A stretch of DNA of 60,391 bases, the filler included, from Sphacelaria rigidula (taxonomy: Eukaryota), in NCBI GenBank assembly GCA_964200075.2. It is 6 parts of 6 records of this genome, joined end to end, with 100 filler letters (N's around TTAATTAATTAA, not from the genome) between each part and the next. Parts side by side here need not be neighbours in the genome. Positions count along the whole stretch, not along the records: positions 20,167 to 30,149 come from CAXNAA020007369.1; 5 more parts are not named here. One strand, written 5' to 3'. The position numbers and the translations under genes are program-made. Below the pieces are notes generated by a model. The model was given only the letters and a program-made list of their open reading frames with translations, ran no database searches and was not told the origin of the DNA. Shown here in pieces: positions 5,101 to 60,327 of the stretch; the stretch's first letter is position 1; the number at the start of each line of letters is the position of its first letter.

Positions 5101-6827
5101 GGCCAACTGCGCGAATTTCTTGCCAGTTACTCCCATCGTGATTGGCCTCGTGAACAACAAGCAGAACCATTATGCAGCGCAACCATGCGGTACCTCCGTG
5201 CTGGCTGCCCTGCTCCTATCCCGGCCAATTTATTGGCCCCGATTGGCACACTACCACCACCACACGCCGCTGAAGTGTACGAACTCGCACGTAAAGGTAC
5301 TATCTTCACAACTGATGCCGGAATCGAACTGTTTGTCCGCCGTCCTACGCCCCACCAGGGTGTAACTTCACCCGCGCCCACTGGACGCCATGCACGCCTA
5401 TTCGACGATGAACCCACTCGGATATATGTCCCATTTTTGATGCGACCGTGGGTAATGAAAGGCTGCCACACTGACCTGTCTTGCCACCTTGGTGTCTCGC
5501 GCACATTAGCGTTACTCGAACGTTTCTACTGGTAGATAGGTACGGAAGTTTCCACCCGCTTCTGGATTCGGCGCTGCTTCAAGTGTCAAGCTCGCAAAAC
5601 CTCACGACAGACTATACGTTGGCCAGTTACTTCGATGTCGGTTCCGAACGCTCCTGGTCACCTCATGTCCTTCGACTATTTTGGTCCTTTACCGCCCACT
5701 GACCGTGGCAACACCTACATCTTACTCTCTACCGACCGCTTCAGCCGTCACGCAGCCATGTACGCGGTCACCGCTGGAGACTTCACAGCAGCGGGCACAG
5801 CTAATATCTTAGCTCATGACTATATCAAGCACTATGGTTGCCCGAAACGGCTTCTCTCCGACAACGGTCAGCAATTTTGCTCCGGTCTCTCGGATGAACT
5901 GTCTACGCTCCTGGGCATTCGAAATATGGCCACAAGCGCTTACCACCCTAATGGTAACGGTGGTACTGAACGAGTTAACCACACCATGGCCCAGATAGAT
6001 GCTGTCTATGGTAGTCAACGATCGACAAAACGATTAGGATCTCCATCTCTCACATGTCATGTTGTCTTTTAACAACTCCGTCAACGCTGCTACCTCTTTC
6101 TCCGAACGAGATACATCTCGGCCGCTACCCGCGTTTGCCCATCACCGTGTTTGAGAGACACACCTTCGATGGCCACCAAGGCTTAGATCAGAATCAGATA
6201 TCCTACCATGACCTGGCGCGTGCACGCCAGCGCAAAGCTTTCACTCTCGTACGTGAACAACACGCTATCAACGCCTCGCGCCTTGAGAGGTCTAATAATG
6301 CTCTCTACGATCTGATGCACAAAAGACCTTTTTGGAAGGTTGGCGATTGGGTCTACTTTACAACAGCTTGTCAACCATTCGTCAAGGCGCTGACAGAGCT
6401 GCCAACGAGACAGTCTTAAAGACTAAGCTATCCCTCAACTGGACAGGACCATTCAAGATTCTGACCGTAGGGCCCTCGCTTTGTCGCCGATGGCTATGAA
6501 TTGGTAGCCACCCAACATTGGAAAGAAAAAATCCGCGCAAAACAGGAAATTCTCCCCAAAGGCGCCTACCTCTGGTACAAAGTCAGCGACAACCTCTGGT
6601 GGCTAGGCCAGACCCACTCCACAGACCTCATCGCGCCTGACACTTACATCGTGCGCTCCATCAATGACCCCGGACCCGTGCAGCTCAAGCTCCGCCCAGA
6701 GCTCTATACCACCAGTCCATCCGCACCAGGAAGGTCTTGGTGTCTTCAGCGACTCAAATCCAGAGGCCTCCGCCGCGGAGTCCAACATAATATCGATCGC
6801 ACACATGATGTTAAGGCACCGCCTTAA
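2163..6827 (+). pseudogene. pol: pol polyprotein pseudogene (protease, RT, RNase H, integrase, C-terminal module)
   Basis: Split over ORFs 2310-2651, 2552-3661, 3607-3810, 3898-4308, 4315-5535, 5635-6072, 6054-6419 and 6501-6827, with domain motifs in the expected order. Confidence 0.9.
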
Positions 6828-7596
6828 GCTCCCACAGACCTTCTGCTTTCCGATCTCGACATTTTTTCCTTTCTCTTTTATTTTCTTCCCGTGTCGTTTA
6901 GATATTTCCCCCTGTTTCCAACATCCAGGACACACCGGTGCCACCCATCGACTTTTTCAACAGCCTACAACCGGAGCTCCTTCGGCGCACCACCACGGAC
7001 GACGAATGGAACTTGCGTGGAGCACGTTCATCCTCGACTACTGCAGCTTTTCGTATTCTCGTTTCTGGCTTTTTATATGACTGGCACTAGACCCCTTGCA
7101 GTCTTGGAGTTGCTTATCCCCTTGCTTCCTCAGCAACCATGCGCTCGCCGCATGTGATTGACTTTTCGGCGGTTGACTTTGGTACCACCCACGTCGACGT
7201 TGTGCCCCTGGTGTGTTTTCTCTTTTGCCTCTTTATTTTTGGCTAGCACGTCGAAGCATTTTATGTTCGTCTGTTTAGTTCGCTAGCCCGCAGCAGCATT
7301 GTGTGCTTCTGCGTCTTCAAGCGCACTTGCGCCTTTCGGTAGCAGATTTCGCTCACCTTGTTTGAGGTGTGGGAGGATCGGGCAACGGAGCGAATGTTGC
7401 CCTCGTCGTCTGGGGTGTACCTTCTTCCTTTTTAGCCACTTCGGCCGAGTGCTTTCATAGCATTGAGTTCGCCTTCGTTGTCGCTCATGACTTGACGTGG
7501 AGAAAAACCTCGGTTTTTGCTGCTTTCGAGACTTCTCATCGCAACTGTAATAGAGGTTCCTCCGGATGGGCGAGTGTCATGAAGCCAGGAGGCGTC

Positions 7597-9983: not shown

Positions 9984-10083
9984 NNNNNNNNNNNNNNNNN
10001 NNNNNNNNNNNNNNNNNNNNNNNNNNNTTAATTAATTAANNNNNNNNNNNNNNNNNNNNNNNNNNNNNNNNNNNNNNNNNNNN
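9984..10083. other. Artificial contig linker N44-TTAATTAATTAA-N44
   Basis: 100-nt spacer with a six-frame stop core; identical at five positions. Confidence 0.99.
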
Positions 10084-17565: not shown

Positions 17566-19042
17566 CAGGACTCTTCACTTTACACGTTACACGTTACGTC
17601 ACAAATGTGGCGTATGAAAAATTATACGTTACGTCACGTCACAATAGTGTACGGGTAAGTTACGTTACGTCACACTTGTGACGTATTAAAAAGTTACATG
17701 TAACGAGTAACGTATTTTGGAACGTTATTGTGACGTGTGAAGGATAAGTTACGTCACGTTTGTGACGTATAACGTAAAATGAAACGTTACACTTCGACTG
17801 TCTTGAGGGCAAATGAACGCTACGTATGGCGTTGTAAGGGTTCATGTACCGAAACTTGGTACCGGAGGTTCACGGTGGCTGCCTTGTTCGAGGATGAGGC
17901 GCGTTCTGCTCGCTATATTGACATGTGAGAATGCGTTTCAGCTAGTGTATCGCTCATGCGTCCCTGACTCACACGTTGGAATTTCAAAGAAATACATGGT
18001 TACGTAATTGATGCACGATAATCAGATAGTGAGATACCAAGATGCGCGCAGGCCATGATGTACCCATACAAACGTAAGTATGTACAGATCATACGCTAGT
18101 GATACCTGGTGGTAGGTTGGCATTTTGTAGGACACCCAACACATGGCAATCCGATTCTGTATTGTTATAATTAGTTGCTCTCTCAGCAGGGCGTGTATGC
18201 AGAAGATCTATATTCTTTATATATAATACACATGAACTGATGATCCGGTACGAATCCAGCCGCGTTCGCAGGGCGGACATCGTGAAGGTAGAAACACATC
18301 ATGACTCATTGTGCCAAGAATAGATACAAAAACTTACACAAACCCGTTCGAACAGAGACGAACGGCAGAAAAACAGAAGAACAAAACAACCCCAACATAA
18401 GGAAACAAAGAAATAAAGAACAAAACTACATAACAGCAGTGAGTGGAGCCACCGAATTTGTCCACGAGGTCACAAGCTCGTGTCACCCTTCGCACCTCTT
18501 CAAAGGCACAAGGTCTCTGATTACTTCGTGGTCCATATTTTGATACTAGTGACACCAATAAGTAAAACGGCACACGGCAACTCAAAATAATGCATACTAC
18601 AGTTGGGTGTGGTGTGGCGGTGCATGCTGCCGTGGCGCTAAACTTGCGCTTACATCGCGTGCATATTATGATGACGTATGCACACTCTTCTTGAACCCAT
18701 GTATCATATCATGCGAGTATCACATATGCTAACCCCACACTAATTGTGGCACAAGTTGGGCGTGTGACAGTCGTGACGTTCATTTAGACGTCACAAACGT
18801 TCAATAATGTGACGTGTAACGTATATTGTGACGTGGAACATATAAAATACGTCACACGTCACGGGAAACCTTTTCAAATACGTTACTGTGACGTATTCGA
18901 AAAATATACGTCACGTCACGTCACCTTTGTGACGTATTGAAAAATTGAACTTTACATCACGTCCCACTTTTTCACTGGTACGTTACGTCACACCATTGTG
19001 ACGTACGTTTGTAACGTGTAACGTGTAACGTAAAGAGCCCTG
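17566..19042. mobile_element. Non-autonomous hAT-like DNA transposon (1477 bp)
   Basis: Left end CAGGACTCTTCACTTTACACGTTACACGTTAC matches the reverse complement of the right end, CAGGGCTCTTTACGTTACACGTTACACGTTAC. Flanks GTTATTTT / GTGATTAT match at 6/8 (decayed 8-bp TSD). Both ends have dense subterminal ACGTCAC/GTGACGT/ACGTTAC motifs. No transposase ORF. Confidence 0.8.
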
Positions 19043-20066
19043 GTGATTATGCATCTGGCGTGAATTGAGGCACAAACACACACCAACTGTTGATCTCACT
19101 GTCCCAGGGTAGACAATGGATAGCTCGAGCCGCAGCTATTGCAGTCCTGCGCCAAAACAAACAAGAGCGAAAATATACCGGAATGCTCGCCCTATGTTTG
19201 TGATTGCCCGCACTTGGCCCGCATTAAAAAAAAAGCACTTTTGAACGGAAACTTATCTTGTTGATTTCTCGACCGTGGGTAAAGTCACCCCCGTGGAACT
19301 TGGTGCACTACTTGGACACAGCACAGGCAGTACGTGCACCGGAGAACAGCTCCTCTCAATCACGGAGCAAAAGAAACCATGCGAATACCGATATACCGCC
19401 GATACGCCCTCAAAACGGCGGTCTCGCGGCCCAGATTCTGTGCGCTGTGATTGAATACATATGTGGACATGGTGGTGCACTCACTTCTATATCATGATCA
19501 CCTGGGAGGGTGTAGTTCTGGCAAACGAACACGATTCAGTACTGACACACCCTCTGGATAACGACAACCTGTAGAAAAATCATTCCGGTATCGCCTGTAG
19601 AAACGCTCAGCGCAGGAGGCACGGTCATACGCGCGCTGTCGTCGCTGCAAGAGGCCGAAACTTCGGTCACATGTCATGAAAACCACAATCAACAAGCTTA
19701 TGCATCTGGTTGGGCCTTGCAACAGTGCGCGAGGGCTCAGATTCTGTTCCGATATATATATATTTATATATATATATTTTGGCGCAGGACTAATTGATCA
19801 ACTGAGTACGCCGTTTTGGCTGCGGGCAAACCGGCTTCAACTTGAATGAGACGCCATGATTTCTGTCAGACGGACGTCGTATACCACACCCACAAACGGC
19901 CAACGTCTCCATCATGAGCAACTTTTTGGACACACACACGGGCAATTGCCAACCCGTATAGCGCCTGAATTTCGCCAAAACCAGTGAAGCTGCACAGGCA
20001 CCGTAGGTAAGGTACCGTACCGAGCGTACCCCCGGTATTTACCGGGGTATCCCATACCGTGGTATG

Positions 20067-20166
20067 NNNNNNNNNNNNNNNNNNNNNNNNNNNNNNNNNN
20101 NNNNNNNNNNTTAATTAATTAANNNNNNNNNNNNNNNNNNNNNNNNNNNNNNNNNNNNNNNNNNNN
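20067..20166. other. Artificial contig linker
   Basis: N44-TTAATTAATTAA-N44. Confidence 0.99.
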
Positions 20167-20413
20167 TGTCTGACACACTTAGGAGCCTCGTTTTTCGTGC
20201 AACCAAATACCCCCCCCCCTATCGTAGGATGACTCATCTGGTGGAAACTCTGCTATCAGGACACCAGAAACTCGGGCAATGCTCCGCATTGTGGGAAAGA
20301 AAACACAGTGCCGACCAACTATCGTTCCGGACCGCTGACAGCATACGTGAGCACACACCGACAGACTACCCAGCCAATCTGAACAACGAGATGGGTGGAA
20401 GAAAGAGTACGAT

Positions 20414-23400
20414 TCACCATGAATCAGGCGTCCGATGATGAGGACTTGATACTCCCAACTCCCTCTTGACGTTTGAATTTTCCTCCACCTCTTCAAACAC
20501 CACATCGACAAATGTGCTCAGGCGTCCAGGTACCCCTGCTGGCGAACCACAGAGCCGCCCAGTACCTCCACCACCACTGCTGATAAAACCATCATGTTCA
20601 CTGCTCCAACCACTTGAAGCGGCACCCTGCTCATGACACTGCCTCATCCCATCGCCACCGTGTGTGGACGAAGGGGCCGTCAGCTCCACCTTCATTCCTG
20701 GTCCTGCTCCCGCGCGCAAGGGCACTTCATCATCAGCCCTCGAATTATGTTGTCCTGTGAGCAAAAGTGAAAGTCCCGGGGGCGAAGATGTCCTTTCCTC
20801 CTGCCCCGAACCAGCGCACAAATTACGAACACCTACCCCGTCGTTTGCACCATAACCCGAGAGTGCTGCGCGCTTGCGCTTCACTCCTCGTGCGTCAGCA
20901 GCGCTTCCTTCACCCTCACCACCCTCCGTTCTGCTACCGCCGGTGGTGCCGCCAGCAGTGTTGAGCTCGGTGGTGTCGGAAACCTTAGCTGTGCCGTGTG
21001 CACCAGCATGGTGTCGGCAAACCATTGCCTCATCCAAGTTGCCCTGGTTGAAAGATGACTTGCAGCAGCCCTCTTCGGTGCACCGCTTACTTACCATGTT
21101 CACCATTCCCGCCCTGGCATGTTTGGAACAGAACTCCGCCTTCGTGCTTCCCGCTACTCCGTACGACGGTAGCGTGGAGCAGCCCTCGTAGCCGCACTTC
21201 TTGGTTACCACGTTCACCATTCCCGCCCTGGCATGTTTGGAACAAAACTCCGCCTTCGTGCTTCCTGCCACACCATACGACGGTAGCGTGGAGCAGCTCT
21301 CGTACCCGCACTTCTTGCTTACTACATTTACCATTCCCGCCCTGGCATGCGTGGAACAAAACTCTGCCTTCGTGCTTCCTGCCACGCCATACGATGGCAA
21401 CGTGGAGCAGCCCTCGTAGCCGCACTTCTTGCGCCTCACATTCACCATTCCCGCCCTGGCATGCCTGGGGCAGTACTCCGCATTTTTGCTCCCTGCCACA
21501 CCGTACGAGGGCTGCGTGAAGCACGCCTCGTAGCCGCATTGTTTGCTTTTCACATTCACCATTCCTGCCCTGGCATGCCTGGGGCAGTACTCCGCCTTCT
21601 TGCTCCCCGCCACACCATACGACGCCTGCGTGAAGCACGCCTCGTAGCCGCATTGTTTGTTCTTCACATTCACCATTTCACCCCTGGCATGCTTGGAGCA
21701 AAACTCCGCTTTCTTGCTTCCTGCCATACCATACGCCGGCAGCGTGAAACATTCCTCGTAGCTGCACTTCTTCTTCACCACATTCACCATTCCTGCCCCG
21801 GCATGCTTGGAGCAGAACTCTGCTTTCTTGCTTCCTGCCATACCATACGCCGGCAGCGTGAAACATTCCTCGTAGCTGCACTTCTTCTTCACCACATTCA
21901 CCATTCCTGCCCTGGCATGCTTGAAGCAATACTCCGCCTTCTTACTCCCCGCGACACCATGTGTCGGCAGCGTGGAACAACCCTCGTACCCGCACGTCTT
22001 GCGCACAACGTCAACCATTCCCGCCCTAGCATGCTTGGAGCAAAAGTTCGCCGTCTTACTCTTCACCACACCATACGTAGGCAGCGTGGAACAGCCCTCG
22101 TAGCCACACTTCTTGTTTGCCACATTCACCATTCCCCCCCTGGCATGCTTGGAACAGAATTCCGCCTTCTTGCTTCCCGCCACACCATACGACGGAAGCG
22201 TGGGGCAGCCCTCGTGGCCGCACTTCTTGTCCACCACATTCACCATTCCCGCCCTGGCATGCTTGAAACAGAATTCCGCCTTCTTGCTTTCCGCTACACC
22301 ATACGACGGAAGCGTGGAGCACGCCTCGTAGCCGCATTGTTTGTTCTTCACATTCACCATTCCTGCCCTGGCATGCTTGGAGCAACACTCCGCCTTCTTG
22401 CTTCCAATCACACCATACGACGGCAGCGTGGAGCATTCCTCGTAGCTGCACCTCTTGCTCATGACGTCAACCATTCCTGCCCTGGCATGCTTGGAGCAAA
22501 ACTCCGCCTTTTTACTCCCCGCCGAACCATACGATGGATGCGTGAAGCAGCCCTCGTAGCCGCACTTCTTTCTCGTCACGTTCACCATTCCTGCCCTGGC
22601 ATGCTTGGAACAAAACTCCGCCTTTTTGCTCCCCGCCACACCATACGACGGCAGCGTGGAGCAGCCCTCGTAGCTGCACTTATTACTTGCCACATTCACC
22701 ATTCCCACCCTGGCATGCTTGGAACAGAATTTTGCCTTCTTGCTCCCCGCCACCCCATACGACGAAGTGGTGGTGCAGCCCTCGTAGCCGCACTCCTTTC
22801 TCGTCACGTTCACCATTCCTGCCCTGGCATGCTTGGAACAAAACTCCGCCTTTTTGCTCCCCGCCACACCAAACGACGAATAGGTGCAGCAGCCGTCGTA
22901 GCCACACTTATTCCTTGCCACAATCACCATTCCCGCCCCGGCATGCTTGGAACAGAATTCCGCTTTCTTGCTCCCCGCCACACCATACGACGAAGTGGTG
23001 GAACAGCCCTCGTAGCCGCATTCCTTGTGTTTCACACCGACCATTCCCGCCCTGGCATGCTTGAAACAGAACTCCGCTCTCTTGCTCCCCATCACACCAT
23101 ACGACGGCTGCGTGGAGCAGCCCTCGTAGCCGCACTTCTTGTTTACTACGTTTACTGTTCCCGCCCTGGCATGCTTGGAGCAGAACTCCGCTCTCTTGCT
23201 CCCCGCCACACCATACGACGGCTGCGTGGAGCAGCCCTCGTAGCCACACTTCTTGTTTACTACGTTCACCATTTCAGCCCTGGCATGTTTGGAGCAGTAC
23301 TCTGCCCTCTTGCTCCCCGCCACACCATACGCCGGCAGCAAAAAACAGCCCTCGTTACCGCACTTCTTGTTTACCACATTCACCATTTCCGCGCTGGCAT

Positions 23401-24292
23401 GCTTGGAACAAAACTCCGCCTTCTTGCTTCCTACCACGCCATACGACGGCAGCGTGGAGCAGCCCTCGTAGCTGCACCTCTTACTCGCGACGTTTACCAT
23501 TCCTGCCTTGGCATGCTCGGAGCAAAACTCCGTCTTCCTACTCCCCGCCACACCACACGACGAATAGGTGGAGCAGCCCTCGTAGCCGCACTTCTTTCTT
23601 ATCACGTTCACCATTCCTGCCCTGGCATGCTTGGAACAAAACTCCGCCTTTTTGCTCCCCGCCACACCACACGACGAATAGGTGGAGCAGCCGTCGTACC
23701 CACACTTATTCCTTGTCACATTCACCATTCCCGTCCTGGCATGCTTGGAACAGAATTCTGCCTTCTTGCTCCCAGCCACACCATACGACGAATTGGTGGA
23801 ACAGCCCTCGTAGCCGCATTCCTTCTGTTTCACATTCACCATTCCCGCCCTGGCATGCTTGGAGCAGAACTCCGCTCTCTTGCTCCCCATCACACCATAC
23901 GACGGCTGCGTGGAGCAGCCCTCGTAGCCGCACTTCTTGTTTACTACGTTTACCATTCCCGCCCTGGCATGCTTGGAGCAGAAGTCCGCCCTCTTGCTCC
24001 CCGCCACACCATACGAGGGCTGCGTGGAGCAGCCCTCGTGGCCGCATTGTTTGTTCTTCACATCCACCATTCCTGCCATGGCATGCCTGGGGCAGTACTC
24101 CGTCCTCTTGCTCCCCGCCACACCATACGTCGGCATCACAGAGCAGCCCTCGTTACCGCACTTCTTGTTTACCACATTCACCATTTCGGTGCTGGCATGC
24201 TTGGAGCAAAACTCCGCCTTCTTGCTTCCTACCACGCCATACGACGGCAGCGTGAAGCATTCCTCGTAGCCGCACTTCTTCACATTCACCAT
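20414..24292 (-). CDS. EsV-1-7-type cysteine-rich repeat protein (28 x 38-aa C-x4-C-x16-C-x2-H repeats, a degenerate 29th, and a low-complexity tail with KRKR)
   Basis: Uninterrupted 1292-aa ORF. Consensus KKCGYEGCSTLPSYGVAGSKKAEFCSKHARAGMVNVxx fits the EsV-1-7 motif known from Ectocarpus and its phaeovirus. The three Cys and the His are kept in all 28 units. The true start is uncertain because a broken extra repeat lies upstream. Confidence 0.88.
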   Translation of the reverse strand: MVNVKKCGYEECFTLPSYGVVGSKKAEFCSKHASTEMVNVVNKKCGNEGCSVMPTYGVAGSKRTEYCPRHAMAGMVDVKNKQCGHEGCSTQPSYGVAGSKRADFCSKHARAGMVNVVNKKCGYEGCSTQPSYGVMGSKRAEFCSKHARAGMVNVKQKECGYEGCSTNSSYGVAGSKKAEFCSKHARTGMVNVTRNKCGYDGCSTYSSCGVAGSKKAEFCSKHARAGMVNVIRKKCGYEGCSTYSSCGVAGSRKTEFCSEHAKAGMVNVASKRCSYEGCSTLPSYGVVGSKKAEFCSKHASAEMVNVVNKKCGNEGCFLLPAYGVAGSKRAEYCSKHARAEMVNVVNKKCGYEGCSTQPSYGVAGSKRAEFCSKHARAGTVNVVNKKCGYEGCSTQPSYGVMGSKRAEFCFKHARAGMVGVKHKECGYEGCSTTSSYGVAGSKKAEFCSKHAGAGMVIVARNKCGYDGCCTYSSFGVAGSKKAEFCSKHARAGMVNVTRKECGYEGCTTTSSYGVAGSKKAKFCSKHARVGMVNVASNKCSYEGCSTLPSYGVAGSKKAEFCSKHARAGMVNVTRKKCGYEGCFTHPSYGSAGSKKAEFCSKHARAGMVDVMSKRCSYEECSTLPSYGVIGSKKAECCSKHARAGMVNVKNKQCGYEACSTLPSYGVAESKKAEFCFKHARAGMVNVVDKKCGHEGCPTLPSYGVAGSKKAEFCSKHARGGMVNVANKKCGYEGCSTLPTYGVVKSKTANFCSKHARAGMVDVVRKTCGYEGCSTLPTHGVAGSKKAEYCFKHARAGMVNVVKKKCSYEECFTLPAYGMAGSKKAEFCSKHAGAGMVNVVKKKCSYEECFTLPAYGMAGSKKAEFCSKHARGEMVNVKNKQCGYEACFTQASYGVAGSKKAEYCPRHARAGMVNVKSKQCGYEACFTQPSYGVAGSKNAEYCPRHARAGMVNVRRKKCGYEGCSTLPSYGVAGSTKAEFCSTHARAGMVNVVSKKCGYESCSTLPSYGVAGSTKAEFCSKHARAGMVNVVTKKCGYEGCSTLPSYGVAGSTKAEFCSKHARAGMVNMVSKRCTEEGCCKSSFNQGNLDEAMVCRHHAGAHGTAKVSDTTELNTAGGTTGGSRTEGGEGEGSAADARGVKRKRAALSGYGANDGVGVRNLCAGSGQEERTSSPPGLSLLLTGQHNSRADDEVPLRAGAGPGMKVELTAPSSTHGGDGMRQCHEQGAASSGWSSEHDGFISSGGGGTGRLCGSPAGVPGRLSTFVDVVFEEVEENSNVKRELGVSSPHHRTPDSW
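21089..24280 (-). repeat. Coding tandem repeat, 28 x 114 bp
   Basis: Exact 114-bp period with no indels over 3192 bp. Confidence 0.95.
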
Positions 24293-25799
24293 TCTTGCCC
24301 TGGCGTGCTTGGAGCAGAACTCTGCTCTATTGCTCCCCCTACACCATGGGACGGCCAGGTGGAGCAGCCCCTCTCACCACACTTCCCAGTCACCACTTGT
24401 AACAGTCTCGCCCTGGTGGATTGAAGCCGAACTCAGGTTTGTAGGCGACGTGGAGGAGCTCTCGTTGATACACTTTATTTCAGCAACGTCGGCCGTCACC
24501 TCCTGTGGCGCTCCTCCAAGACCTGACTCTTGACGATGGCACAAATTTCATGATGGCGGAAAATACTTCGTGAGCCGTGGGCGGAAGGGAGTTGAAATAC
24601 TTCGCAGAACGAATAGGATCGTTGTTGCTGCATATACCCCGGAGAAAAAGCTTCTGTCTGCATTGAAATGAGGAGACATCCCGTGTAAGCTGACGCCAAC
24701 TCGCAAGATTATTCCAGCGAATGCGACGCCTTCTACGCTATTACCGTAGGGATCGGAAGCGGATCAAGCACTAGTGTAGGGCAATCGCAGAACCATGATG
24801 CAGGGGACATGTAAAGTGCAATGCCGATGTTAGCGATGCCCAGCTGCATCAAAAGAAATCACACAGCGATGTATGTTAACATAACAAACTGAGAGCTTAC
24901 AGATCACACAGGACGAGCCTGCTGAAACTCTAGTGCAAAATGATTGGTGAAGAAGTATGGTCCAGCGAGAGCGATCGCTGTATATCATCACATGAGCAAT
25001 AAACTTGGGTAAACCTATGAAAGGCGCGGGTGTGGCCGGGGGTGGCAGCGTTGCTGTTCAACAGCACCAGCCAAGAGGCATGTGCCGTATCATCGCTTGG
25101 GAGAAACGTCACGGTGATGTTGGACTCTCCTGCAGGGCAAAAGAGTACTAAAAAACGGACGTGTATTTCATGTACCGCAGGTTTCATTGCGGATACTGTG
25201 GAAGCCTCTACATCTCATCAGTTGTCTTTGGATGACTTGAGGACACTTGAGCGCAGTATCGATCGATCTTTCATGAAAAAGTCCTTCATTCAACGTGAAA
25301 ATTGAAGGTCCAGTTCTCCTTCGGTTTTTGGGTTGCTGGGTTCCGAGGCGATATTTGAAAACCTGAACTGAGAAAGTCAGCACGACTGTTCCTCATGGAT
25401 CGTGTGTGTTTGGGGTCGTATTTTCCACTATTGGACCTTAGACACGGTTTTTGATCCCTGACAGGGAATATCGCCATCAGACGTCTTGGATACTTTGCAT
25501 CGGTCTACTGAGAGGAGTTTAGCCCACCTTTCATATTCGCTTGGCTCCGAGGTTTCGTGGATGGCCTTTGGGCGAAAACACGGCTTGAATATAAAATGAG
25601 GTGCTTGCAGGTATCGTCGCGCGAAGGTGAGAGTACCGATCGTTTGCCCGTGCTCCACAGAATGTTCGCATTAAACGTCACCATCCGGTGCATATAGCGT
25701 TCGGGGTCTCGTGTAGACTTTCGTATGCACCCTTCTCCGTACGGCACGCGTTCCACGCGACATGGCGCTTAATCGGTGAGAAGTGATTGACCCAGGCTT

Positions 25800-27010
25800 T
25801 TTAAGCACGTGGACATCTCCCAAAAATTACACGATTGGTGAAATGCGTGCATCACGGCCCAGTTCGTGCATGTCGATGAGGTATAGTTATGAGAGCTTGA
25901 ACCCGTTTTAGGCTAGCCCATCTCGAGTATGGTTTCGATCAAATCCGCTGTAACAAGACCTGAAAGTTTCGGGCGGAAACCTTCCCAGGTGATTTCGTGC
26001 TATTAGCTTCAGTCTACGGCCTCTGTGGAAGTTGCAGCAGTGATCACGCGCTACAACGACCACGTCCCCACTGGAGGTTTATGGTCTTTGCCAAAATATT
26101 GAAGGACGTACCGCCGTGGCGGAGATCAGAATTGACGAAGAAACTAAACGATGGGTATGAATCAAGAGTACTACGACGCCAACACCTGCTGCCATCGTTT
26201 CAGTACACACTCGGTCTACATGGCACCATATGCTACGACAGCGTCGAGACGCATGCGGCGAAGAACATGGGCAGACGGCGTATTGGAGTCGAGAAAAAAG
26301 AGCGAAGTAGTCCTGGGACACGTGGTGACGCACGGACAAGCGAGAATCGGACCGCCGTCACAAACGAGAGGCTGCGGCGTCGAGCGATGCCGATCGATAA
26401 ATGCTGTGTGCTCATATTGGTTGTTGATTGTGTCCTTAGTCGGTGGCACTGGGGTGACCCCTGGTGTGTATCCAAATCTACTTTGCTGCCTTCAGTTCTT
26501 TGGGCTTCACCACTTTTGTCGTCTCCTCCCCTTTTATGCATTTTCTCCGTCTTTCTCTCCACACATGTCTTTTTTCCTGCCGGTGTATGGCAAAGCAGTG
26601 TAGTACCTCGCTTCATCGTGTTTTTTCAAGAATGAGCGGACAAGGTCCGTGCGCTAAATAGAGCGATTGTAGTAGAGAGCTGCAATATTTCCCTTCCCAC
26701 GGCCTTTGGCGTGTTACCACTGGGCATGGATGTGGTTTTGCGAAAAATATTTTCCGCTAAGCCGTGTGGTACAGATCGGCCACTTCTTCCCCTGCTTTGC
26801 TTTGCTTTTATTTCAGTTTAGTTTTCTTCGTCGTACACTTTCTAACTTCAAGTTCTGCAAGTCTGAGTCTACTGCGTTGCTCTGTTGATCTTGTCTTCTC
26901 GTTTTCATTCTTCAGCGAGTTTTTCAGCTTTGTTTTGTCTCGGGCACGTCTATCATATATCATGACGGTTGGATCCCTGGGGGTGGTCAGTGAAAGCGCG
27001 ACAATCAATC
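25800..27010 (+). mobile_element. Highly degenerate 3' end of a non-LTR (RTE-like LINE) retrotransposon
   Basis: Broken peptide remnants resemble RTE ORF C-termini (RFMVFAK.., AAKNMGR.RIGVEK). A T-rich 3'UTR ends in CGTCTATCAT..GG(A)CCC..GGGG..TCAGT.AAAG.GCGACAATCAATC, which is shared with 30693-30765. Boundaries are approximate. Confidence 0.45.
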
Positions 27011-30149: not shown

Positions 30150-30249
30150 NNNNNNNNNNNNNNNNNNNNNNNNNNNNNNNNNNNNNNNNNNNNTTAATTA
30201 ATTAANNNNNNNNNNNNNNNNNNNNNNNNNNNNNNNNNNNNNNNNNNNN
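30150..30249. other. Artificial contig linker
   Basis: N44-TTAATTAATTAA-N44. Confidence 0.99.
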
Positions 30250-32009: not shown

Positions 32010-35000
32010 AAGCTGTCACTGAGATCCGACGCCCTCGCGCTGTTCACTACAATGCAGGGGAGGTACACGGAGGCAGAACCACTGTATGAGCAGTGCCAGA
32101 GGATCCAGGTGAAGGTGCTAGGTACTAAGCACCCATCGCTGGCTACAACGCTCCACAGCCGTGCGATGTTGAAAAAATCTCAGGTAAGAGCCGATAGAGG
32201 CATTGGAATGTCGTATGTTGATGTGTCAACGGTCGTGTGTGGTGTTCGATGTTGTTCGCTGATGCTGTGAGCCCATGCTAGTGAGACAATGAGTGCGGCG
32301 CAATCAATTTGCTGTACGTGAGAGATGTGAAGAATGGACGTAGTAACGTTGTTTGTGAGCTCACAGCTCTCACCGCCTGAACATGCGGGCGGGGTGTTGG
32401 AGCGAGCGTGTCACCGCAGTACTGGGTGGAGCTGTGACGGAGACACGACGCCCTCGCGCTGTTTCCTACAATGCAGGGTAGGTACATGGAGGCGGAGCCA
32501 CTGTACGAGCAGTGTCAGGCGATCCAGGTGCAGGTGCTGGGCCCCGAGCACCCGGAGTTGGCCACGACGCTCCACAACCGTGCGGGATTGTATGAAGCTC
32601 AGGTGAGAGCCCATGGAGGCTTTTGGTAGTCGTGTGCCGACGTGTCACCACAGTTGTCGGTGGAGCTGTGCCAGAGACCCGACGCCCTCGCGCCGTTTAC
32701 TACAATGCAGGGTAGGTACGCGGAGGCAGGGCCACTGTACGAGCAGTGTCAGGCGATCCAGGTGAACGCGCTAGGCACTGAGCACCCTTCGTTGGCCACG
32801 ACGCTCCACAACCGTGCGGGATTGTATAAAGCTCAGGTGAGAGCCGACTAAGGCTTATGGTTGTCGCGTGTTGACGTGTCAAAAGCCGTGCCTGGTGATC
32901 GATGTTGTTGGCTGATGCTCTGGGTCACTGCTAGTGAGGCCATAGATGCGGCGGAGTCAACTGTTTGCACGTGAGAACCGTGAAGAATGGGCACTGTACC
33001 GTCGGTTGTGAGCTTACAGCGCCTACCGCCTGCATATGCGGGTGGGGCAGTGGAGCGAGCGTGTCACCGCAGTTGCAGGTGAAGCTGTGACTGAGATGCG
33101 ACGTCCTCCTGCTGTTTACTATACTGCAGGGTAGGTACGTGGAGGCGGAGCCACTGTACGCACAGTGTCAGGCGATCCAGGTGAAGGTGCTAGGCCCTGA
33201 GCACCCGTCGTTGGCCACGACGCTCCACAGCCGTGCGGGATTGTATCAAGCGCAGGTGGGAGCCGATAGAGGCTTGTGATTGTCGCGTGCTGACGTGTCA
33301 ATGATCCTGCGTAGTGTTCGATGTTGTTCGCTGATGCTGTGGGCCCATGCTAGTGATGCTCTATTTGCGGCGGAGTCAACTAGTTGTACGCGACAGTCGT
33401 GAAGAATGGACGTAGTACCGTCGGTTGTGAGCATACAGCACTCACCGCCTGCACGTATGGTCGGGGTGGTGGAGCGAGCGTTTCACCGTAGTTGTAGGTC
33501 AATCGGTGACTGAGACAGGACGCCTTCGCGCTGTTTACTACAATGCAGGGGAGGTACGCAGAGGCTGAGCCACTATATGAGCAGTGTCAGGCGATGAAGG
33601 AGAAAGTGCTAGGCCCTGAGCACCCGTCGTTGGCCACGACGCTCCACAGCCGTGCGGCATTGTATCAAGCTCAGGTGAGAGGCTTGTGGTTGTCGTGTGT
33701 TGACGTGTCAACGGCCGTGTGCGGTGTGTAATGTCTGCTGATGCTGAAGGCTAATGCTAGTAGGACCATAGGTGCGGCGGAATCAATTGTTTGTACGTCA
33801 GAGCCATGAAGAATAGGCGTTTTAACGTTGGTTGTGAGCATACAGCACTCGCCGCCTGCATAAGCGGGCGGGGCGGTGGAGCGAGTGAGTCACCGCAGTA
33901 TTAGATGGAGCTGTGACCGAGACACGACGCTCTCGCGCTGTTTACTACAATACAGGGGCGGTACACAGAGGCAGAGCCACTGTACGAGCAGTGCCAGGAG
34001 ATTCAGGTGAAGGTGCGAGGGCCAGAGCACCCGTCGTTGGCCACGACGCTCCACAGTCGTGCGGGATTGTACAAAGCTCAGGTGGGAGCCGATAGAGGCA
34101 TTGGAATGCCGTGTGTTGACGTGTCAACGGCCGTTTGCGGTGTTCGATGTTGTTCGCTGATGCTGTAGGCTAATGCGAGTGAAGCCATAGGTACGGCGGA
34201 ATCAACTCGTTGTACGCGAGAGCCGTGAAGAATAGGCGTAGTACCGTCGGTTGTGGGCAAACAGCGCTCACGGCCTGCACATTGGGCGGGGCGATGTAGC
34301 GAGCGTGTCACCGCAGTTGTAGGTGGAGCTGTGACTGAGGCTCGATGTCCTCGCGCTCTTACTACAATGCAGGGTAGGTACCCGGAGGCGGAGCCATTGT
34401 ACGAGCAGTGCCAGAGGATCCAGGAAAAGATGCTAGGCACTGAGCACTCGTCGTTGGCTACGACGCTCCACAGCCGTGCGGAATTGTATAAAGTTCAGGT
34501 GAGAGCCGATGTAATTTCTTTTTTGTCGTGTGTTGACGTGTCAACGGTCGTGTGTGGTGTTCGATGTTGTTCGCTGATGCCGTGGGCCGATGCGAGCGAT
34601 GCCCTAGTTTATGCGGAATCAACTCGTTGTACGTGAGAGCCGTGATGAATGGGCGCAGTACCTGTGCTTGTAAGCTTACAGCGCCTACCGCTGGCAGATG
34701 CCGGTGGGGTGGTGGAGCGAACGTGTCACCGCCGTTATAGGTGGAGCTCGAACTCACACCCGACGCCCTCGCGCTGTTACTACAATGCAGGGTAGATACG
34801 AGGAAGCGGAGCCACTGTATGAGCAGTGCCAGGCGATCCAGTTGAAGGTGCTAGGCCCTGAGCATCCGGAGCTGGCCGCGACGCTCCACAACCGTGCGGG
34901 ATTGTATCAAGCTCAGGTGGGAGCCGATAGGGGCTCTGGAATGTCGTGTGTTGACGTGTCAACGGTCGTTTGCGGTGTTGGATGTTGTTCGCTGATGGTG

Positions 35001-37480
35001 TGGGTCCATGCTAGTGCGGCCATGGATGCGGCGGAATCAACGCGTCGTACGTGGGAGCCGTGAAGAATAGGCGTAGTACCCTCGGTTGTGAGCTTCCAGC
35101 ACTCACCGCCTTCACATGCGGGCGGGACAATGGAGCAAGCGTGTCACCGCAGTCGTATGTGGAGCTGTGACTGAGACATGACGCCCTCGCGCTGATCACT
35201 TCACTGCAGGGTAGGTACGTGGAGGCCAAGCCACTGTATGAGCAGTGCCAGGCGATCCAGTTGAAGGTGCTAGGCCCTGAGCACCCGGAGCTGGCCACGA
35301 CGCTCCACAGCCGTGCGGGATTGTATCAAGCTCAGGTGAGAGCCGACAGAGGCATTTCATTGTCGTGCGTTGACGTGTCAACGGCCGTGTGTGATGTCCG
35401 ATGTTGTTCGCTGATGCTGTGGGCCAATGCTAGTGAGGCCATAGATGTGGCGGAATCATCTCGTTGTACGCGAGAGCCGTGAAGAATAGGCGTAGTACCG
35501 TCGGTTGTGAGCATACAGCACTCACACGCCTGGACATGCGGGCGGGGCGGTGGAGCGAGCGAGTCACGGCGGTTGTAGGTGGAGCTGTAACAGAGACACG
35601 ATGTTCTGGCGCTTTTTACTGCACTGCAGGGTAGGTACGCCAAGGCGGAGGAACTGTATGAGCAGTGTCGGGCAATCCAGGAGAAGGTGCTAGGCCCTGA
35701 GCACCCGTCGTTTGCCACGACGCTCCACAACCGTGCGGGATTGTATGCAGCTCAGGTGAGAGCCGATGGAGGCTTTTGTCTATCGTGTGTTGACGTATCA
35801 ACGGCCGTGTGTGGTGTTCGATGTTGTTGGCTGGCTGACGCTGTGGACCAATGCTAGTGCGCCCATAGGTGCGGCGGAGTCAAGTCGTTGTACGCGAGGG
35901 GCGTGAAAACTAGGCGTGGTACTGCCGGTTGTGAGCATACAGCGCTCACCGCCTGCACATGCGAGCGGGGTGGTGAAGCAAGCGTGTCACCGCAGTTGTA
36001 GGTCAAGCTGTGACTGAGACCCGACGCCCTCGCGCTGTTCACTATCATGCAGGGGAGGTACACGGAAGCAGAGTCACTATATAGGCAGTGCCAGACGATC
36101 CAGGTGAAGGTGCTAGGCATTGAGCACCCGTCGTTGGCCACGACGCTCTACAACCGCGCGAGATTGTATCAAGCTCAGGTGAGAGCCGATAGAGGCTTGT
36201 GGTTGTCGTGTGTGGTGTTGGACGTTGTTCGCTGATGCTGTGGGCCACTGCTTGTGAGACGACAGGTGCGGCGGAGTCAAGTGGTTGTACGTGAGAGCCG
36301 TGAAGCATGGGCACAGTACCGTCGGTTGTGTGCTCTCAGCGCTCACCGCCTGCACATGCAGGCTTAGCCTTGGAGCTAGCGCGTCACCGCAGTTGTAGGT
36401 CGAGCCATGACTGAGACACGACGCCCTCGCGCTGTGTACTACAATGCAGGGTCGGTACGTGGAGGCGGAGCCACTGTATGAGCAGTGTCAGGCGATCCAG
36501 TTGAAGGTGCTAGGCCCTGAACACTCGGAGTTGGCCACGACGCTCCACAACCGTGCGGGATTGTATCATTCTCAGGTGAGAGCCGATAGAGGCTTGTGGT
36601 TGTCGTGTGTTGACGTGTCAACGGCCATGTGTGGTGTTCGATGTTGTGTAGGTGCGCCGGAGTCAACTGGTTGTACGCGAGAGCCGTGAAGAATGGGCGT
36701 AGTACCGTCGGTTGTGAGCTTTCAGCGCTCACCGCCTAAACATGGTGGGGCGGTGGAGCGAGCGTGTCCCCGCAGTTGTAGGTGGAGCTGTGACTGAGAC
36801 ACGACGCCCTCGCGTCGATCACTACAATGCAGGGAAGGTTCGAGGAGGCGGAGCCACTGTATGAGCAGTGCCAGGCGATCCAGGTGAAGGTGCTTGGCAC
36901 TCAGCACCCGTGGTTGGCCACGACGCTCTACAACCGTGCGAGATTGTGTAAAGCTCAGGTGAGAGCCGATAAAGGCTTGTGGTTGTCGCGTGTTGACATG
37001 TCAACGGCCGTGCCTGGTGTTCGCTTTTGTTCGCTGGTGGTGTAGGCCAATGCTAGTGGGGCCATAGGTGCGGCGGAGTCAACTCGTTGTACGTGAGAGC
37101 CGTGAAGACCAGGCGAGCTACCGTCGGTTGTGAGCTTACAGCGCCTACCGCATGCACATGCGGGCTTGGCGGTGGAGCTGTGACTGAGACACGACGCCCT
37201 CACGCTGTTTACTACAATGCAGGGTAGGCACGTCGAGGCGCAGCAATTGTATGAGCAGTGTCAGGCGATCCAGCTGACGGTGCTAGGCACTGACCACCCA
37301 TTGTTGGCCACGACGCTCCACAGCCGTGCGGGATTGTATCATTCCCAGGTGAGAGCCGATAAAGGCTTTTTGCTGTCTTGTGCTGACGTGTCAACGGCCG
37401 TGTGTGGTATTGGAGTGTCGCTGATGCCGTGGGCCAATGCTAGTGCGGCCATAGGTGCGGCGGAGTCAACTCGTTGTAGT
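32010..37480 (+). repeat. Tandem exon+intron duplication array (14 units, mostly ~380-420 bp)
   Basis: The introns are homologous to one another along their whole length (GTGAGAGCCGATAGAGGC ... GACGCCCTCGCGCTGTTTACTACAATGCAG). Confidence 0.92.
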
Positions 37481-40231: not shown

Positions 40232-40331
40232 NNNNNNNNNNNNNNNNNNNNNNNNNNNNNNNNNNNNNNNNNNNNTTAATTAATTAANNNNNNNNNNNNN
40301 NNNNNNNNNNNNNNNNNNNNNNNNNNNNNNN
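40232..40331. other. Artificial contig linker
   Basis: N44-TTAATTAATTAA-N44. Confidence 0.99.
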
Positions 40332-50313: not shown

Positions 50314-50413
50314 NNNNNNNNNNNNNNNNNNNNNNNNNNNNNNNNNNNNNNNNNNNNTTAATTAATTAANNNNNNNNNNNNNNNNNNNNNNNNNNNNNNN
50401 NNNNNNNNNNNNN
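50314..50413. other. Artificial contig linker
   Basis: N44-TTAATTAATTAA-N44. Confidence 0.99.
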
Positions 50414-60133: not shown

Positions 60134-60327
60134 CTGCTGTCGTGTTTACAGTGGTCGAGTAACGGCGAGTGAGTCGTCCATTGTCGAGACGCCAGCGAAC
60201 GAATCAACAGTGGTGGCATCGTCAGCGGTCCAGTCGTCGGTGAATCAGTTGTCATTGAACGATCCGTCAGTGGTGGAGTTGTCAGTCAACAAGCCGTCAG
60301 GGGTTGAACTGGTCGTCAACTTTGTGG

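What the first reader, a model, noticed from the sequence alone, without database searches (positions are those of the whole stretch)
20414..24292. 28-finger EsV-1-7 array with two hypervariable clusters: a candidate modular (TALE/zinc-finger-like) recognition code
Seen: 28 exact-length 38-aa repeats with invariant C3, C8, C25, H28 and G15. Variation concentrates at residues 9-13 just after the second Cys (position 11 is L, M, Q, N, Y, T or H; 12 is P, S or A; 13 is S, T or A) and at linker residues 37-38 (VN, KN, KQ, TR, IR, AS, KH, AR, MS, VD, AN, VR, VK, KS, RR, VS, VT). The repeats are basic and the tail has an NLS-like VKRKR. Known: EsV-1-7 repeats occur in phaeoviruses and form an expanded family in Ectocarpus (e.g. 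IMMEDIATE UPRIGHT); to my knowledge their ligand is not established. Inference: a fixed Zn-binding scaffold with a few swappable residues is the architecture of programmable nucleic-acid binders, so this could be an undescribed repeat-code system, possibly in host-virus conflict.
Basis: partly seen in the sequence, partly recalled or inferred. Interest (0 to 1): 0.72.

Follow-up and report, generated by a model that had tools for sequence, protein, structure and literature searches.

The report
Brown-alga gene with 28 zinc repeats
A brown-alga-type gene strings together 28 copies of a small, known but functionally unexplained zinc-binding repeat (EsV-1-7), and giant-virus relatives that join the same repeats to a DNA-cutting domain suggest that such arrays bind DNA, although nothing yet shows a readable code.

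Summary
Window 20414-24292 (-) is a 1292-aa ORF with 28 exact 38-aa EsV-1-7 repeats (Pfam PF19114, 28 stretches), a degenerate 29th repeat and a 190-aa tail. The zinc ligands are invariant, and variation peaks at columns 38, 37 and 11.

It is an oversized member of a known family. The closest named relatives are Sphacelaria rigidula proteins with the same tail but only 1-7 strict repeats. The array grew by internal duplication, including a 6-7-repeat block.

The whole array is under purifying selection (omega 0.26). The hypervariable columns evolve at about the neutral rate (omega about 1.06, not significantly above 1).

The same columns (11, 13, 37, 38) differ from repeat to repeat in 154 other arrays.

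98 of 180 stored relatives, and at least 547 giant-virus loci, join such arrays to a Vsr-like PD-(D/E)xK nuclease. This supports DNA targeting. Earlier agents of this scan had noted that fusion on other DNA.

A TALE-like code is neither shown nor excluded. Verdict: new member of a known kind, of moderate interest.

The parts
20414..24292 (-). Whole ORF, 1292 aa plus stop codon: EsV-1-7 array protein
   Evidence: the ORF listing; Pfam PF19114 E=0 with 28 stretches
21089..24280 (-). 28 canonical 38-aa EsV-1-7 repeats (residues 5-1068), pattern C-x4-C-x16-C-x2-H. Ligands are invariant in 28 of 28 repeats. Net charge +92.
   Evidence: A 6-repeat AF2 model has pLDDT 89.5. It matches the BFVD model of EsV-1-7 (Q8QNQ2) at E 6.1e-25.
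22685..24280 (-). Repeats 1-14: two copies of a 6-7-repeat block. Pairs 1/8, 2/9, 3/10, 4/11, 5/12 and 6/13 are 83-96% identical in DNA.
   Evidence: Pairwise identities and the lag-7 peak of 0.835
24293..24387 (-). Frameshifted 'repeat 0' remnant in the upstream leader. It holds a 2-codon uORF (ATG at 24347, reading M-V-stop). The main ATG at 24292 is the Met of its GMVNV.
   Evidence: Contigs of runs X1, X6 and X3 cover 24297-24524 or beyond with 0 differences; X9 covers it with 2 substitutions and no indel.
20987..21088 (-). Degenerate 29th 'cap' repeat (KRCTEEGC...VCRHH), also present in the Sphacelaria paralogues
20417..20986 (-). Acidic, Gly/Ser-rich tail (190 aa, pI 5.5) shared with 9 shorter paralogues
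20870..20884 (-). VKRKR, an NLS-like basic motif (RG-x-KRKRA in paralogues; R115 of the alignment is invariant)
   Evidence: Reading it as a nuclear localisation signal is my inference.
20684..20695 (-). MKVE. Its K and E are invariant in 10 of 10 aligned tails. It fits the psi-K-x-E sumoylation consensus, which I recall rather than tested.
20459..20470 (-). VKRE within a conserved C-terminal [NSD][VM]K-x-[ED] stretch (consensus SNVKLELGVS): a second psi-K-x-E-like motif, present in the 8 tails that reach this point

Best explanation
The gene is an intact, selectively maintained nuclear gene of a brown alga. Its closest named relatives are Sphacelaria rigidula proteins. [quoted passage not shown]

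Each 38-aa unit most likely holds one zinc ion through C3, C8, C25 and H28 (inferred). In the model it forms a small knuckle with a short strand, a C-x2-H turn and a further short strand. The units stack into a continuous, strongly basic rod.

The protein most likely enters the nucleus through its KRKR motif and binds DNA along a long or reiterated target, with the conserved tail as a regulatory or effector part (all inferred).

The array grew by tandem and block duplication inside the gene. The positions that differ from repeat to repeat (2, 9, 11, 37, 38) are the ones that are individualised in all EsV-1-7 arrays. They are therefore the best candidates for ligand contacts. In this gene they have drifted at about the neutral rate since the duplications.
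For: Family membership. Pfam PF19114 matches 28 stretches at E=0. The 6-repeat AF2 model (pLDDT 89.5, pTM 0.57) matches the BFVD model of EsV-1-7 itself (Q8QNQ2, E 6.1e-25, TMq 0.66, 46% identity) and 28 further giant-virus proteins at E<=1e-3, four of them named 'Endonuclease'.

Selection. Over all repeat pairs dS is 0.60, dN is 0.157 and omega is 0.26. Non-hypervariable columns give 0.175. The ligands are invariant in 28 of 28 repeats.

Subfamily. Nine shorter relatives of 268-484 aa share the tail and are 48-63% identical over the matched stretches. Eight of the nine are named Sphacelaria rigidula. They carry 1-7 strict repeats.

In-gene growth. 20 of 28 repeats have their nearest relative inside the array, 5 tie and 3 are nearer a paralogue repeat. 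A block duplication is visible.

DNA targeting, by association. 98 of 180 stored relatives end in a conserved R-P-D ... E-x-D-E-x-Q-H ... R-x-N-P-D domain. Its AF2 model (pLDDT 89.6) matches the FASTKD4 FAST/RAP module (9gek_A, Z 8.1, rmsd 3.3, 108 aligned), Vsr endonuclease (1cw0_A, Z 8.0, rmsd 5.8, 123 aligned), a putative endonuclease-like protein (3hrl_A, Z 7.8, rmsd 2.8, 92 aligned) and the homing endonuclease I-Bth0305I (3r3p_B, Z 7.1, rmsd 4.1, 97 aligned). The top Foldseek rows are almost all PD-(D/E)xK nucleases, although none reaches E<=1e-3. At least 547 such loci lie in IMG/VR, many on contigs labelled as giant-virus genome bins. In I-Bth0305I the part N-terminal to the Vsr-like domain is the DNA-binding part (PMC3239194, passages read). 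An Ectocarpus transposase carries an N-terminal EsV-1-7 domain (PMC12477816).

Charge. The array has net +92 and pI 9.33.

Family-wide individualised columns. In 8 viral orthologue pairs, columns 2, 11, 13 and 38 give omega 0.70 against 0.36 for the rest of the array. So in the viral genes these columns are not free to vary.
Against: No binding to zinc, DNA or anything else has been shown for any EsV-1-7 protein in the papers I could read.

The window's protein has no nuclease domain, so the DNA inference is by association with distant relatives that are 30-45% identical.

The repeat model has no significant match to any solved fold. Foldseek's best row has E 0.5. VIA-align's only row is a RING domain at Z 2.2.

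Column 11 is Leu in 14 of 28 repeats here, whereas the paralogues mostly have K, Q, R or H there (28 of 39 repeats). Leu is an odd choice for a base-reading residue.

The hypervariable columns evolve at omega about 1 in this gene.

The 5' end is uncertain. A frameshifted repeat and a uORF precede the ATG.

Expression is not shown (see Tried and rejected).

The nuclease-fold Z scores (8.1 or less) are in the range that the tool calls middling.
Confidence: 0.55

Rival explanations
1. Modular recognition code. Each repeat reads one or a few bases through the residues at columns 9-13 and 37-38, so the order of repeats spells a DNA or RNA target, as in TALE, PPR or C2H2 arrays.
For: Columns 11, 13 and 38 (and 37 to a lesser degree) are individualised per repeat in 154 arrays. 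They are also the most variable columns within 47 viral nuclease-fused arrays. The alternation of variable 9/11/13 with conserved T10/P12 fits an extended segment with one exposed face (sequence only). In three closer viral orthologue pairs the hypervariable columns are conserved (omega 0.15-0.29). The fusion to a nuclease has the architecture of natural targeted nucleases.
Against: Omega is about 1.06 at columns 11, 37 and 38 in this gene, with no significant excess (p 0.15). Within-protein diversity is also 0.5-0.67 at many other columns, so there is no crisp two-residue code. Model geometry could not be inspected. An earlier agent of this scan reported no TALE-like fixed-position code in one viral array (e1-5531500; not re-tested here).
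Confidence: 0.12
2. Protein- or RNA-binding scaffold. The array is a zinc-stabilised rod that recruits proteins (as LIM, B-box or RING-like modules do) or binds RNA, and DNA is not its ligand.
For: The only row in the wide fold search is a RING domain, which is weak (Z 2.2). Leu dominates column 11, as would suit a protein interface. Pfam found no DNA-binding domain in the protein. The one characterised family member, IMM, is described as a protein of unknown function (PMC7457493, passage read).
Against: More than half of the stored relatives join the array to a DNA nuclease, and an Ectocarpus transposase carries the domain. The strong positive charge of the array suits a polyanion, although this does not tell RNA from DNA.
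Confidence: 0.2
3. Runaway tandem expansion with little or no function. Unequal crossing-over inflated an ordinary paralogue of a few repeats, and the gene is drifting towards a pseudogene.
For: The gene has 28 repeats, while the paralogues have 1-7 strict repeats. There is a recent block duplication. A frameshifted repeat and a uORF lie at the 5' end. The setting is rich in transposons, with retrotransposon remains at 2.5-6.1 and 40.7-43.8 kb. The hypervariable codons evolve neutrally. A long ORF is weak evidence here, because the opposite strand of the array is also open for 1025 codons.
Against: Omega is 0.26 over the array and 0.175-0.25 outside the hypervariable columns, at dS 0.60. There is no stop, no indel and no lost ligand in 28 repeats. 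The tail motifs are conserved with the paralogues.
Confidence: 0.1

Closest known systems
EsV-1-7 cysteine-rich repeat family (Pfam PF19114; EsV-1 gene 7; Ectocarpus IMMEDIATE UPRIGHT)
   Same: Same C-x4-C-x16-C-x2-H motif and 38-aa period. The Pfam score is far above the cut-off. The model matches the predicted structure of EsV-1-7. The family is greatly expanded in brown algae, and 2018 members have been catalogued (10.1101/2024.02.19.579948, passages read).
   Different: This gene has 28+1 repeats. EsV-1-7's IMM has five, and the longest array among the 180 relatives stored here has 16 by a loose motif count. Its tail is specific to a Sphacelaria-type subfamily.
Unnamed Sphacelaria rigidula proteins (P0035, P0036, P0038, P0042, P0044, P0046, P0076, P0122)
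   Same: They share the repeat type, the cap repeat and the tail motifs RG-x-KRKRA, MKVE, GRLCGSP and SNVKLELGVS. They are 48-63% identical over the matched stretches. Six of the eight gene models also start with MVNV.
   Different: They are 268-484 aa long with 1-6 strict repeats. Their column 11 is mostly K, Q, R or H rather than L.
Giant-virus EsV-1-7 array joined to a Vsr-like PD-(D/E)xK nuclease, with the architecture of I-Bth0305I and the 'EDxHD' homing endonucleases (PDB 3r3p; PMC3239194)
   Same: Same repeat, same period and the same individualised columns.
   Different: The window's protein has no zinc ribbon and no nuclease domain. It ends instead in an acidic tail with an NLS-like motif. 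The viral arrays hold 2-12 strict repeats and are 30-45% identical to this one.
C2H2 zinc-finger arrays and TALE repeats (comparison of how it may work, not of membership)
   Same: Tandem small modules with a fixed scaffold and a few repeat-specific positions; basic; and in relatives joined to a nuclease.
   Different: Ligand spacing and predicted fold differ. The model shows short strands and a 3-residue turn, with neither a beta-beta-alpha finger nor a two-helix repeat. The repeats are only 73% identical in protein, and variation is spread over many columns. No target or code is known.
SBP (SQUAMOSA promoter-binding) domain, first zinc site
   Same: As I recall, not from a call, its first site is also C-x4-C-x16-C-x2-H. 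The Pfam SBP profile (positions 1-38 of 75) hits six repeats at E 7.4e-6 with 26.6 bits.
   Different: The score is below the 27-bit cut-off and no single stretch passes. Clearly spurious families score higher on the same query (Phe_ZIP 2e-9). No SBP chain appeared in the PDB profile searches. The second SBP zinc site is absent.

Membership tests
EsV-1-7 repeat family (PF19114) | Match to the Pfam model above the gathering score | tested here: met
   1368 bits against a cut-off of 25, with 28 stretches
EsV-1-7 repeat family (PF19114) | C-x4-C-x16-C-x2-H ligand pattern in tandem units of about 38 aa | tested here: met
   28 of 28 repeats. The 38-aa spacing is also the commonest in relatives.
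EsV-1-7 repeat family (PF19114) | Predicted fold like that of EsV-1-7 itself | tested here: met
   BFVD Q8QNQ2: E 6.1e-25, TMq 0.66, rmsd 5.4 over 228 columns. Both structures are predictions.
EsV-1-7 repeat family (PF19114) | One zinc ion bound per repeat | not testable with these tools
   Inferred from the invariant Cys3His only; needs metal analysis
TALE repeats | Helical 33-35-aa repeats that are near-identical except for two adjacent variable residues (features recalled) | tested here: not met
   38-aa units with short strands and no long helices. Mean protein identity is 73%, and 58% of the variation lies outside the flagged columns.
C2H2 zinc fingers | C-x2-4-C-x12-H-x3-5-H beta-beta-alpha finger (features recalled) | tested here: not met
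   Different ligand spacing. No C2H2 family appears among the Pfam hits at E<=0.01.
SBP domain (PF03110) | Match above the Pfam gathering score and two zinc sites | tested here: inconclusive
   26.6 bits against a cut-off of 27, 0 single stretches, only profile positions 1-38 of 75. No SBP chain in the PDB searches.
Vsr-like (EDxHD-type) homing endonucleases | C-terminal Vsr-like PD-(D/E)xK catalytic domain | tested here: not met
   Pfam names no nuclease in the window's tail, and the tail does not contain the R-P-D ... E-x-D-E-x-Q-H motif (tail sequence). 98 of 180 relatives have the domain.

The most novel reading that the evidence does not exclude
EsV-1-7 arrays are a further natural class of modular DNA-reading repeats. 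Each 38-aa zinc unit would read a short step of DNA through the patch formed by columns 2, 9, 11, 13, 37 and 38. Giant viruses would use short arrays to aim Vsr-type homing nucleases. Brown algae would have domesticated and multiplied them as regulators or as a defence against integrated viruses and transposons. On this reading the 28-repeat protein reads a very long or tandemly repeated target, such as a satellite or viral DNA.
Probability: 0.12. Interest if true: 0.85.

Novelty: new member of a known kind. Interest (0 to 1): 0.45.

Why it matters
EsV-1-7 proteins form one of the largest gene-family expansions in brown algae. Denoeud et al. call it one of the most remarkable amplifications they detected (passage read), and a 2026 preprint reports that the largest orthogroup across brown-algal genomes consists of these genes (10.64898/2026.04.27.720984, passage read). 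The family includes the developmental regulator IMM. The molecular role of the repeat is still unknown in every paper I could read.

This gene is the longest array I met. Its internal duplicates (repeats 1-6 against 8-13) are natural near-isogenic variants that differ mostly at the candidate contact positions. That makes convenient material for a binding assay. Together with the viral nuclease fusions it turns the question 'what does the EsV-1-7 repeat bind?' into a direct experiment. If a code existed it would be a new scaffold for programmable DNA binding. If not, the gene is simply an oversized family member.

Tried and rejected
No genome. No whole genome is held for this window.

Tail search. 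A search among proteins of 710-2261 aa found nothing. This was an effect of the length limit: shorter relatives with the same tail appeared in the index-free search.

I did not reconstruct ancestors and used pairwise counts instead.

Fold of the repeat. Foldseek against the PDB gave no row at E<=1e-3. The best row was the coronavirus nsp13 helicase at E 0.5. VIA-align against 48,161 chains gave one row, the RING domain 2yhn_A at Z 2.2. This does not show that the fold is new.

PDB sequence profiles. The profile of A2 gave only two chance rows. The single-repeat profile A4 gave plastocyanin copper loops at E 0.29-0.56, which is not significant.

Other Pfam hits. Phe_ZIP, WCCH, the PfEMP1 domain and the nsp13 zinc-binding domain are summed weak matches to a Cys-rich repeat, in most cases with no single stretch passing. 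I treat them as spurious.

Naming the viral C-terminal domain by sequence. Pfam names nothing. PHROG phrog_9084 'homing endonuclease' reaches only E 0.0027 and 0.076.

Contact inference by mutual information on 770 repeat pairs. It was swamped by subfamily signal, with the same column covarying in neighbouring repeats.

Protein Atlas for the tail. The best score was 0.79, to EsV-1-7 clusters, which is below the level of a lead.

Rfam on 18000-27000. No match.

Expression. No RNA holder is listed. Runs X1 and X6 are only guessed to be RNA and come from one study. Their contigs cover 20215-24530 at depth about 55. They have depth 0-2.6 over 24619-25466, where X3 and X9 go on. With one study and a guessed library type I do not count this as evidence of transcription or of a start site.

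Strain differences. Run X9 shows 8 differences inside the ORF: 3 synonymous and 5 replacing. One replacement is T to N at column 11 of repeat 12. These are too few to test. The ninth place computed, 22160, differs in all four runs, in many contigs of the repeat, so it is not a strain difference.

Papers not held. Macaisne et al. 2017 could not be read, so what I say of it comes from citing papers. The supplements of the bioRxiv preprints are closed. Table S17 of 10.1101/2024.02.19.579948 may list this gene or longer arrays, and Fig. S11 of 10.64898/2026.04.27.720984 marks a long Ectocarpus gene that I could not see.

Searches in print. Of the 11 papers that hold 'EsV-1-7' (9 listed), I read the passages of six, and none mentions a nuclease fusion. 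A search for 'giant virus', 'homing endonuclease', 'zinc finger' and 'Vsr' listed none by title or abstract start.

Full report
OBSERVATION. The minus strand of window 20414-24292 carries a 1292-codon ORF. Cut every 38 residues, it gives 28 exact-length units followed by a divergent 29th unit and a 190-aa tail. Tandem Repeats Finder reports one 114-bp array (21064-24370, 29.1 copies, 81% matches, score 3614). Pfam PF19114 (EsV_1_7_cys) matches with E=0 and 28 stretches.

Entropy peaks at column 38 (2.46 bits), 37 (2.26) and 11 (2.11), then 2 (1.60), 9 (1.42) and 7 (1.26). Columns 12 and 13 are only moderately variable (0.96).

So variation is concentrated but not confined. The array has net charge +92 and pI 9.33.

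GENE ANATOMY. The array continues upstream of the ATG. A 'repeat 0' (about 24293-24387) reads K-C-G-E-R-G-C-S-T-W-P-S-H-G-V-G-G in another frame and then shifts into the ORF's frame. The start codon is therefore the Met of that repeat's GMVNV. The only other ATG in the 248 bases upstream opens a 2-codon uORF at 24347.

Contigs of three runs of the same coded organism, from two studies, cover 24297 to 24524 or beyond with no difference. A fourth run, an algae metagenome, covers it with two substitutions and no indel. So the frameshift is not a local assembly slip, although one of these runs may be the window's own source.

Most gene models of the nearest relatives also begin MVNV. Residues 1069-1102 form a cap repeat (KRCTEEGC...VCRHH). 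The tail holds VKRKR (1137-1141), MKVE (1200-1203), GRLCGSP and VKRE (1275-1278).

RELATIVES. No close orthologue exists in either protein collection. Among proteins of 710-2261 aa the best is 50% identical. An index-free search of 1.84 billion representatives gave 6345 hits at E<=1e-3.

The best hits that also cover the tail are nine proteins of 268-484 aa, 48-63% identical over the matched stretches. Eight are labelled Sphacelaria rigidula and one has no name. They have 1-7 strict repeats, the same cap and the same tail motifs. K and E of MKVE are invariant in 10 of 10 aligned tails. The SNVKLELGVS-type end is present in all 8 that reach it.

Both K-containing motifs fit the psi-K-x-E sumoylation consensus, and RG-x-KRKRA looks like a monopartite nuclear localisation signal. 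Both readings are recalled, not tested.

Among the 180 proteins stored at that point the longest array had 16 repeats by a loose motif count. So 28+1 is the longest I met.

HOW THE ARRAY AROSE AND EVOLVES. Mean DNA identity between repeats is 0.80. Identity peaks at lag 7 (0.835). Repeats 1-6 pair with 8-13 at 83-96%, which marks a block duplication. Pairs 22/23, 24/25 and 27/28 are recent neighbours. 20 of 28 repeats have their closest relative within the array, 5 tie and 3 are closer to a paralogue repeat.

Nei-Gojobori counts over all pairs give dS 0.60, dN 0.157 and omega 0.26. Outside six variable columns omega is 0.175. Column 11 gives 1.4 and columns 37-38 give 0.92. In ten independent sister pairs, columns 11, 37 and 38 give omega 1.06 and the remaining columns (also leaving out 9 and 13) give 0.25. 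The excess of replacement changes over the synonymous rate is not significant (16 of 70 sites against pS 0.174, p=0.15).

So the gene as a whole is maintained by selection, and its variable positions change at about the neutral rate. That fits relaxed constraint or mild diversification equally well. A tree-based site test was not possible.

STRUCTURE. AlphaFold2 on repeats 3-8 with 72 aligned rows gives pLDDT 89.5 and pTM 0.57. Each unit shows a short strand at columns 14-16, a bridge at column 24, a three-residue helical turn at columns 26-28 (the C-x2-H) and a strand at columns 33-35. In some units columns 2 and 11 are each marked as single strand or bridge residues.

The model matches the predicted structure of EsV-1-7 itself (Q8QNQ2, E 6.1e-25) and 28 further giant-virus proteins at E<=1e-3. 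It matches no solved structure convincingly. So whether the variable residues share one face remains open. The alternation of variable columns 9, 11 and 13 with conserved T10 and P12 suggests an extended segment with one exposed side.

THE FUNCTIONAL LEAD. The consensus of the alignment of relatives revealed a conserved C-terminal domain. 98 of 180 stored relatives carry it, always after 2-16 repeats and, in most of them, a C-x2-C ... C-x2-C element. Its invariant residues are R-P-D ... E-x-D-E-x-Q-H ... R ... R-x-N-P-D. Pfam does not name it and PHROGs gives only a weak 'homing endonuclease' hit.

Its AlphaFold2 model (P0157, pLDDT 89.6) has an alpha-beta-beta-beta-alpha-beta core. The wide structural search puts the FASTKD4 FAST/RAP module (Z 8.1), Vsr endonuclease (1cw0_A, Z 8.0, rmsd 5.8, 123 aligned), the endonuclease-like protein 3hrl_A (Z 7.8, rmsd 2.8, 92 aligned), BpuSI, the homing endonuclease I-Bth0305I (3r3p_B, Z 7.1) and McrC on top. 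Foldseek's list is filled with PD-(D/E)xK nucleases at E 0.004-0.07. The scores are middling but the answer is consistent.

In I-Bth0305I the region N-terminal to the Vsr-like domain is the DNA-binding part (PMC3239194, passages read). By analogy the EsV-1-7 array is the targeting part of these viral nucleases. An Ectocarpus Tc1/mariner transposase with an N-terminal EsV-1-7 domain points the same way (PMC12477816, passage read).

Earlier agents of this scan had reached the same reading of the viral genes on other DNA. I saw those notes only.

IS THERE A CODE? Across 154 arrays with five or more strict repeats (1049 repeats), two repeats of one protein differ at column 11 with probability 0.81. 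Two repeats from different proteins differ there with probability 0.86, a ratio of 0.94. Columns 38 (0.91), 13 (0.90) and 37 (0.85) behave alike, as does column 35 (0.93). Columns 15, 29, 33, 24 and 23 are uniform within a protein (ratios 0.35-0.58).

In eight ungapped viral orthologue pairs, columns 2, 11, 13 and 38 give omega 0.70, against 0.36 for the rest of the array and 0.25 for the nuclease domain. Three closer pairs give 0.15-0.29 and the more diverged pairs give 0.6-1.6. So in the viral genes these residues are partly conserved between orthologues.

Against a crisp code, many other columns also vary within proteins (0.5-0.67). In the window's gene half of the column-11 residues are Leu. 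No target is known for any array.

SURROUNDINGS. No second EsV-1-7 unit lies elsewhere in the window. 28 of 29 strict six-frame motif hits are in the array and the other is a chance match. The flanks hold decayed Ty3/gypsy-like reverse transcriptase, RNase H and integrase ORFs (2.5-6.1 kb and 40.7-43.8 kb) and a gag-type zinc knuckle (49.2-49.7 kb). There are also long tandem repeats. None of the 16 flanking ORFs that I scanned matched a giant-virus family in Pfam. I did not scan every ORF. So the gene does not appear to lie in an intact provirus.

VERDICT. The thing is a very long, selectively maintained member of the known EsV-1-7 family and of a Sphacelaria-type subfamily with a conserved tail. 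The literature already proposes that the family may be a new class of zinc finger or transcription factor.

The most likely mechanism is a nuclear, zinc-stabilised, basic rod that binds DNA. It rests on association with viral nucleases and a transposase, not on any assay. A TALE-like code is a legitimate but unsupported extension (about 0.12). I rate it a new member of a known kind, with interest 0.45.

Noticed in passing
window 21347-24424 (+): A 1025-codon ORF runs antisense to the array, and several shorter ORFs lie in other frames. They follow from a repeat unit that lacks stop codons in those frames, not from a second gene.
   Followed up: partly
window repeats, columns 25-33 (F-C-S-K-H-A-R-A-G-M-V): The C-x2-H-x4-M spacing and the A-G-M-V letters mirror the copper-binding loop of plastocyanin (Y-C-S-P-H-Q-G-A-G-M-V). 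The PDB profile hits have E 0.29-0.56, which is not significant. Met33 is nearly invariant across the family: 27 of 28 here, and within-protein entropy 0.01 in the viral arrays. This is probably a coincidence plus a core residue.
   Followed up: partly
window 32407-37478: Long tandem repeats with periods of 234, 383-419 bases, up to 9.6 copies at 80% matches. Their nature is unknown.
   Followed up: no
window 51300-60300: Many arrays of a 15-base unit (GAGTCGTCAGTGGTC-like) recur about every 700-1500 bases. On the minus strand they read as Asp/Ser/Thr-rich D-D-S-T-T runs. Pfam finds nothing in one such ORF.
   Followed up: partly
window 2528-6072 (+), 40721-43806 (+), 49161-49700 (+): Decayed Ty3/gypsy-type retrotransposon ORFs: RVT_1, RT_RNaseH, the integrase zinc-binding domain, rve, and a gag zinc knuckle.
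   Followed up: partly
window 9984-10083, 20067-20166, 30150-30249, 40232-40331, 50314-50413: Pairs of 44-N blocks separated by 12 letters recur about every 10,083 bases. The regular spacing suggests masking rather than assembly gaps. One pair lies 250 bases downstream of the gene's stop codon.
   Followed up: no
L030 and L045 (giant-virus contigs, genes at about 375-1760 and 5992-7377): These two viral array-nuclease genes are 94.7% identical in DNA but only 91.6% in protein. The pN/pS ratio is 2.39 in the non-hypervariable array columns and 0.97 in the hypervariable ones. This may reflect diversifying change in one array, but the counts are small.
   Followed up: partly
L002 and L003 (one IMG/VR contig of 74,273 bases): Two copies of the array-nuclease gene lie about 16 kb apart on one giant-virus contig. 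This is in line with a multi-copy, possibly mobile gene.
   Followed up: no
P0003, P0012, P0019, P0030, P0032, P0034: Eukaryotic gene models join EsV-1-7 repeats to other Pfam domains. P0003 carries PF00443, PF13423, PF06337 and PF01753. P0019 carries four EF-hand-type families. P0030 carries PF00078 (RVT_1). P0034 carries PF05183. Some of these may be gene-model fusions.
   Followed up: no
window 20205-20240: A run of C residues just downstream of the gene draws a very high contig depth and many loose ends in all four runs. It is a low-complexity effect and not a feature of the gene.
   Followed up: partly
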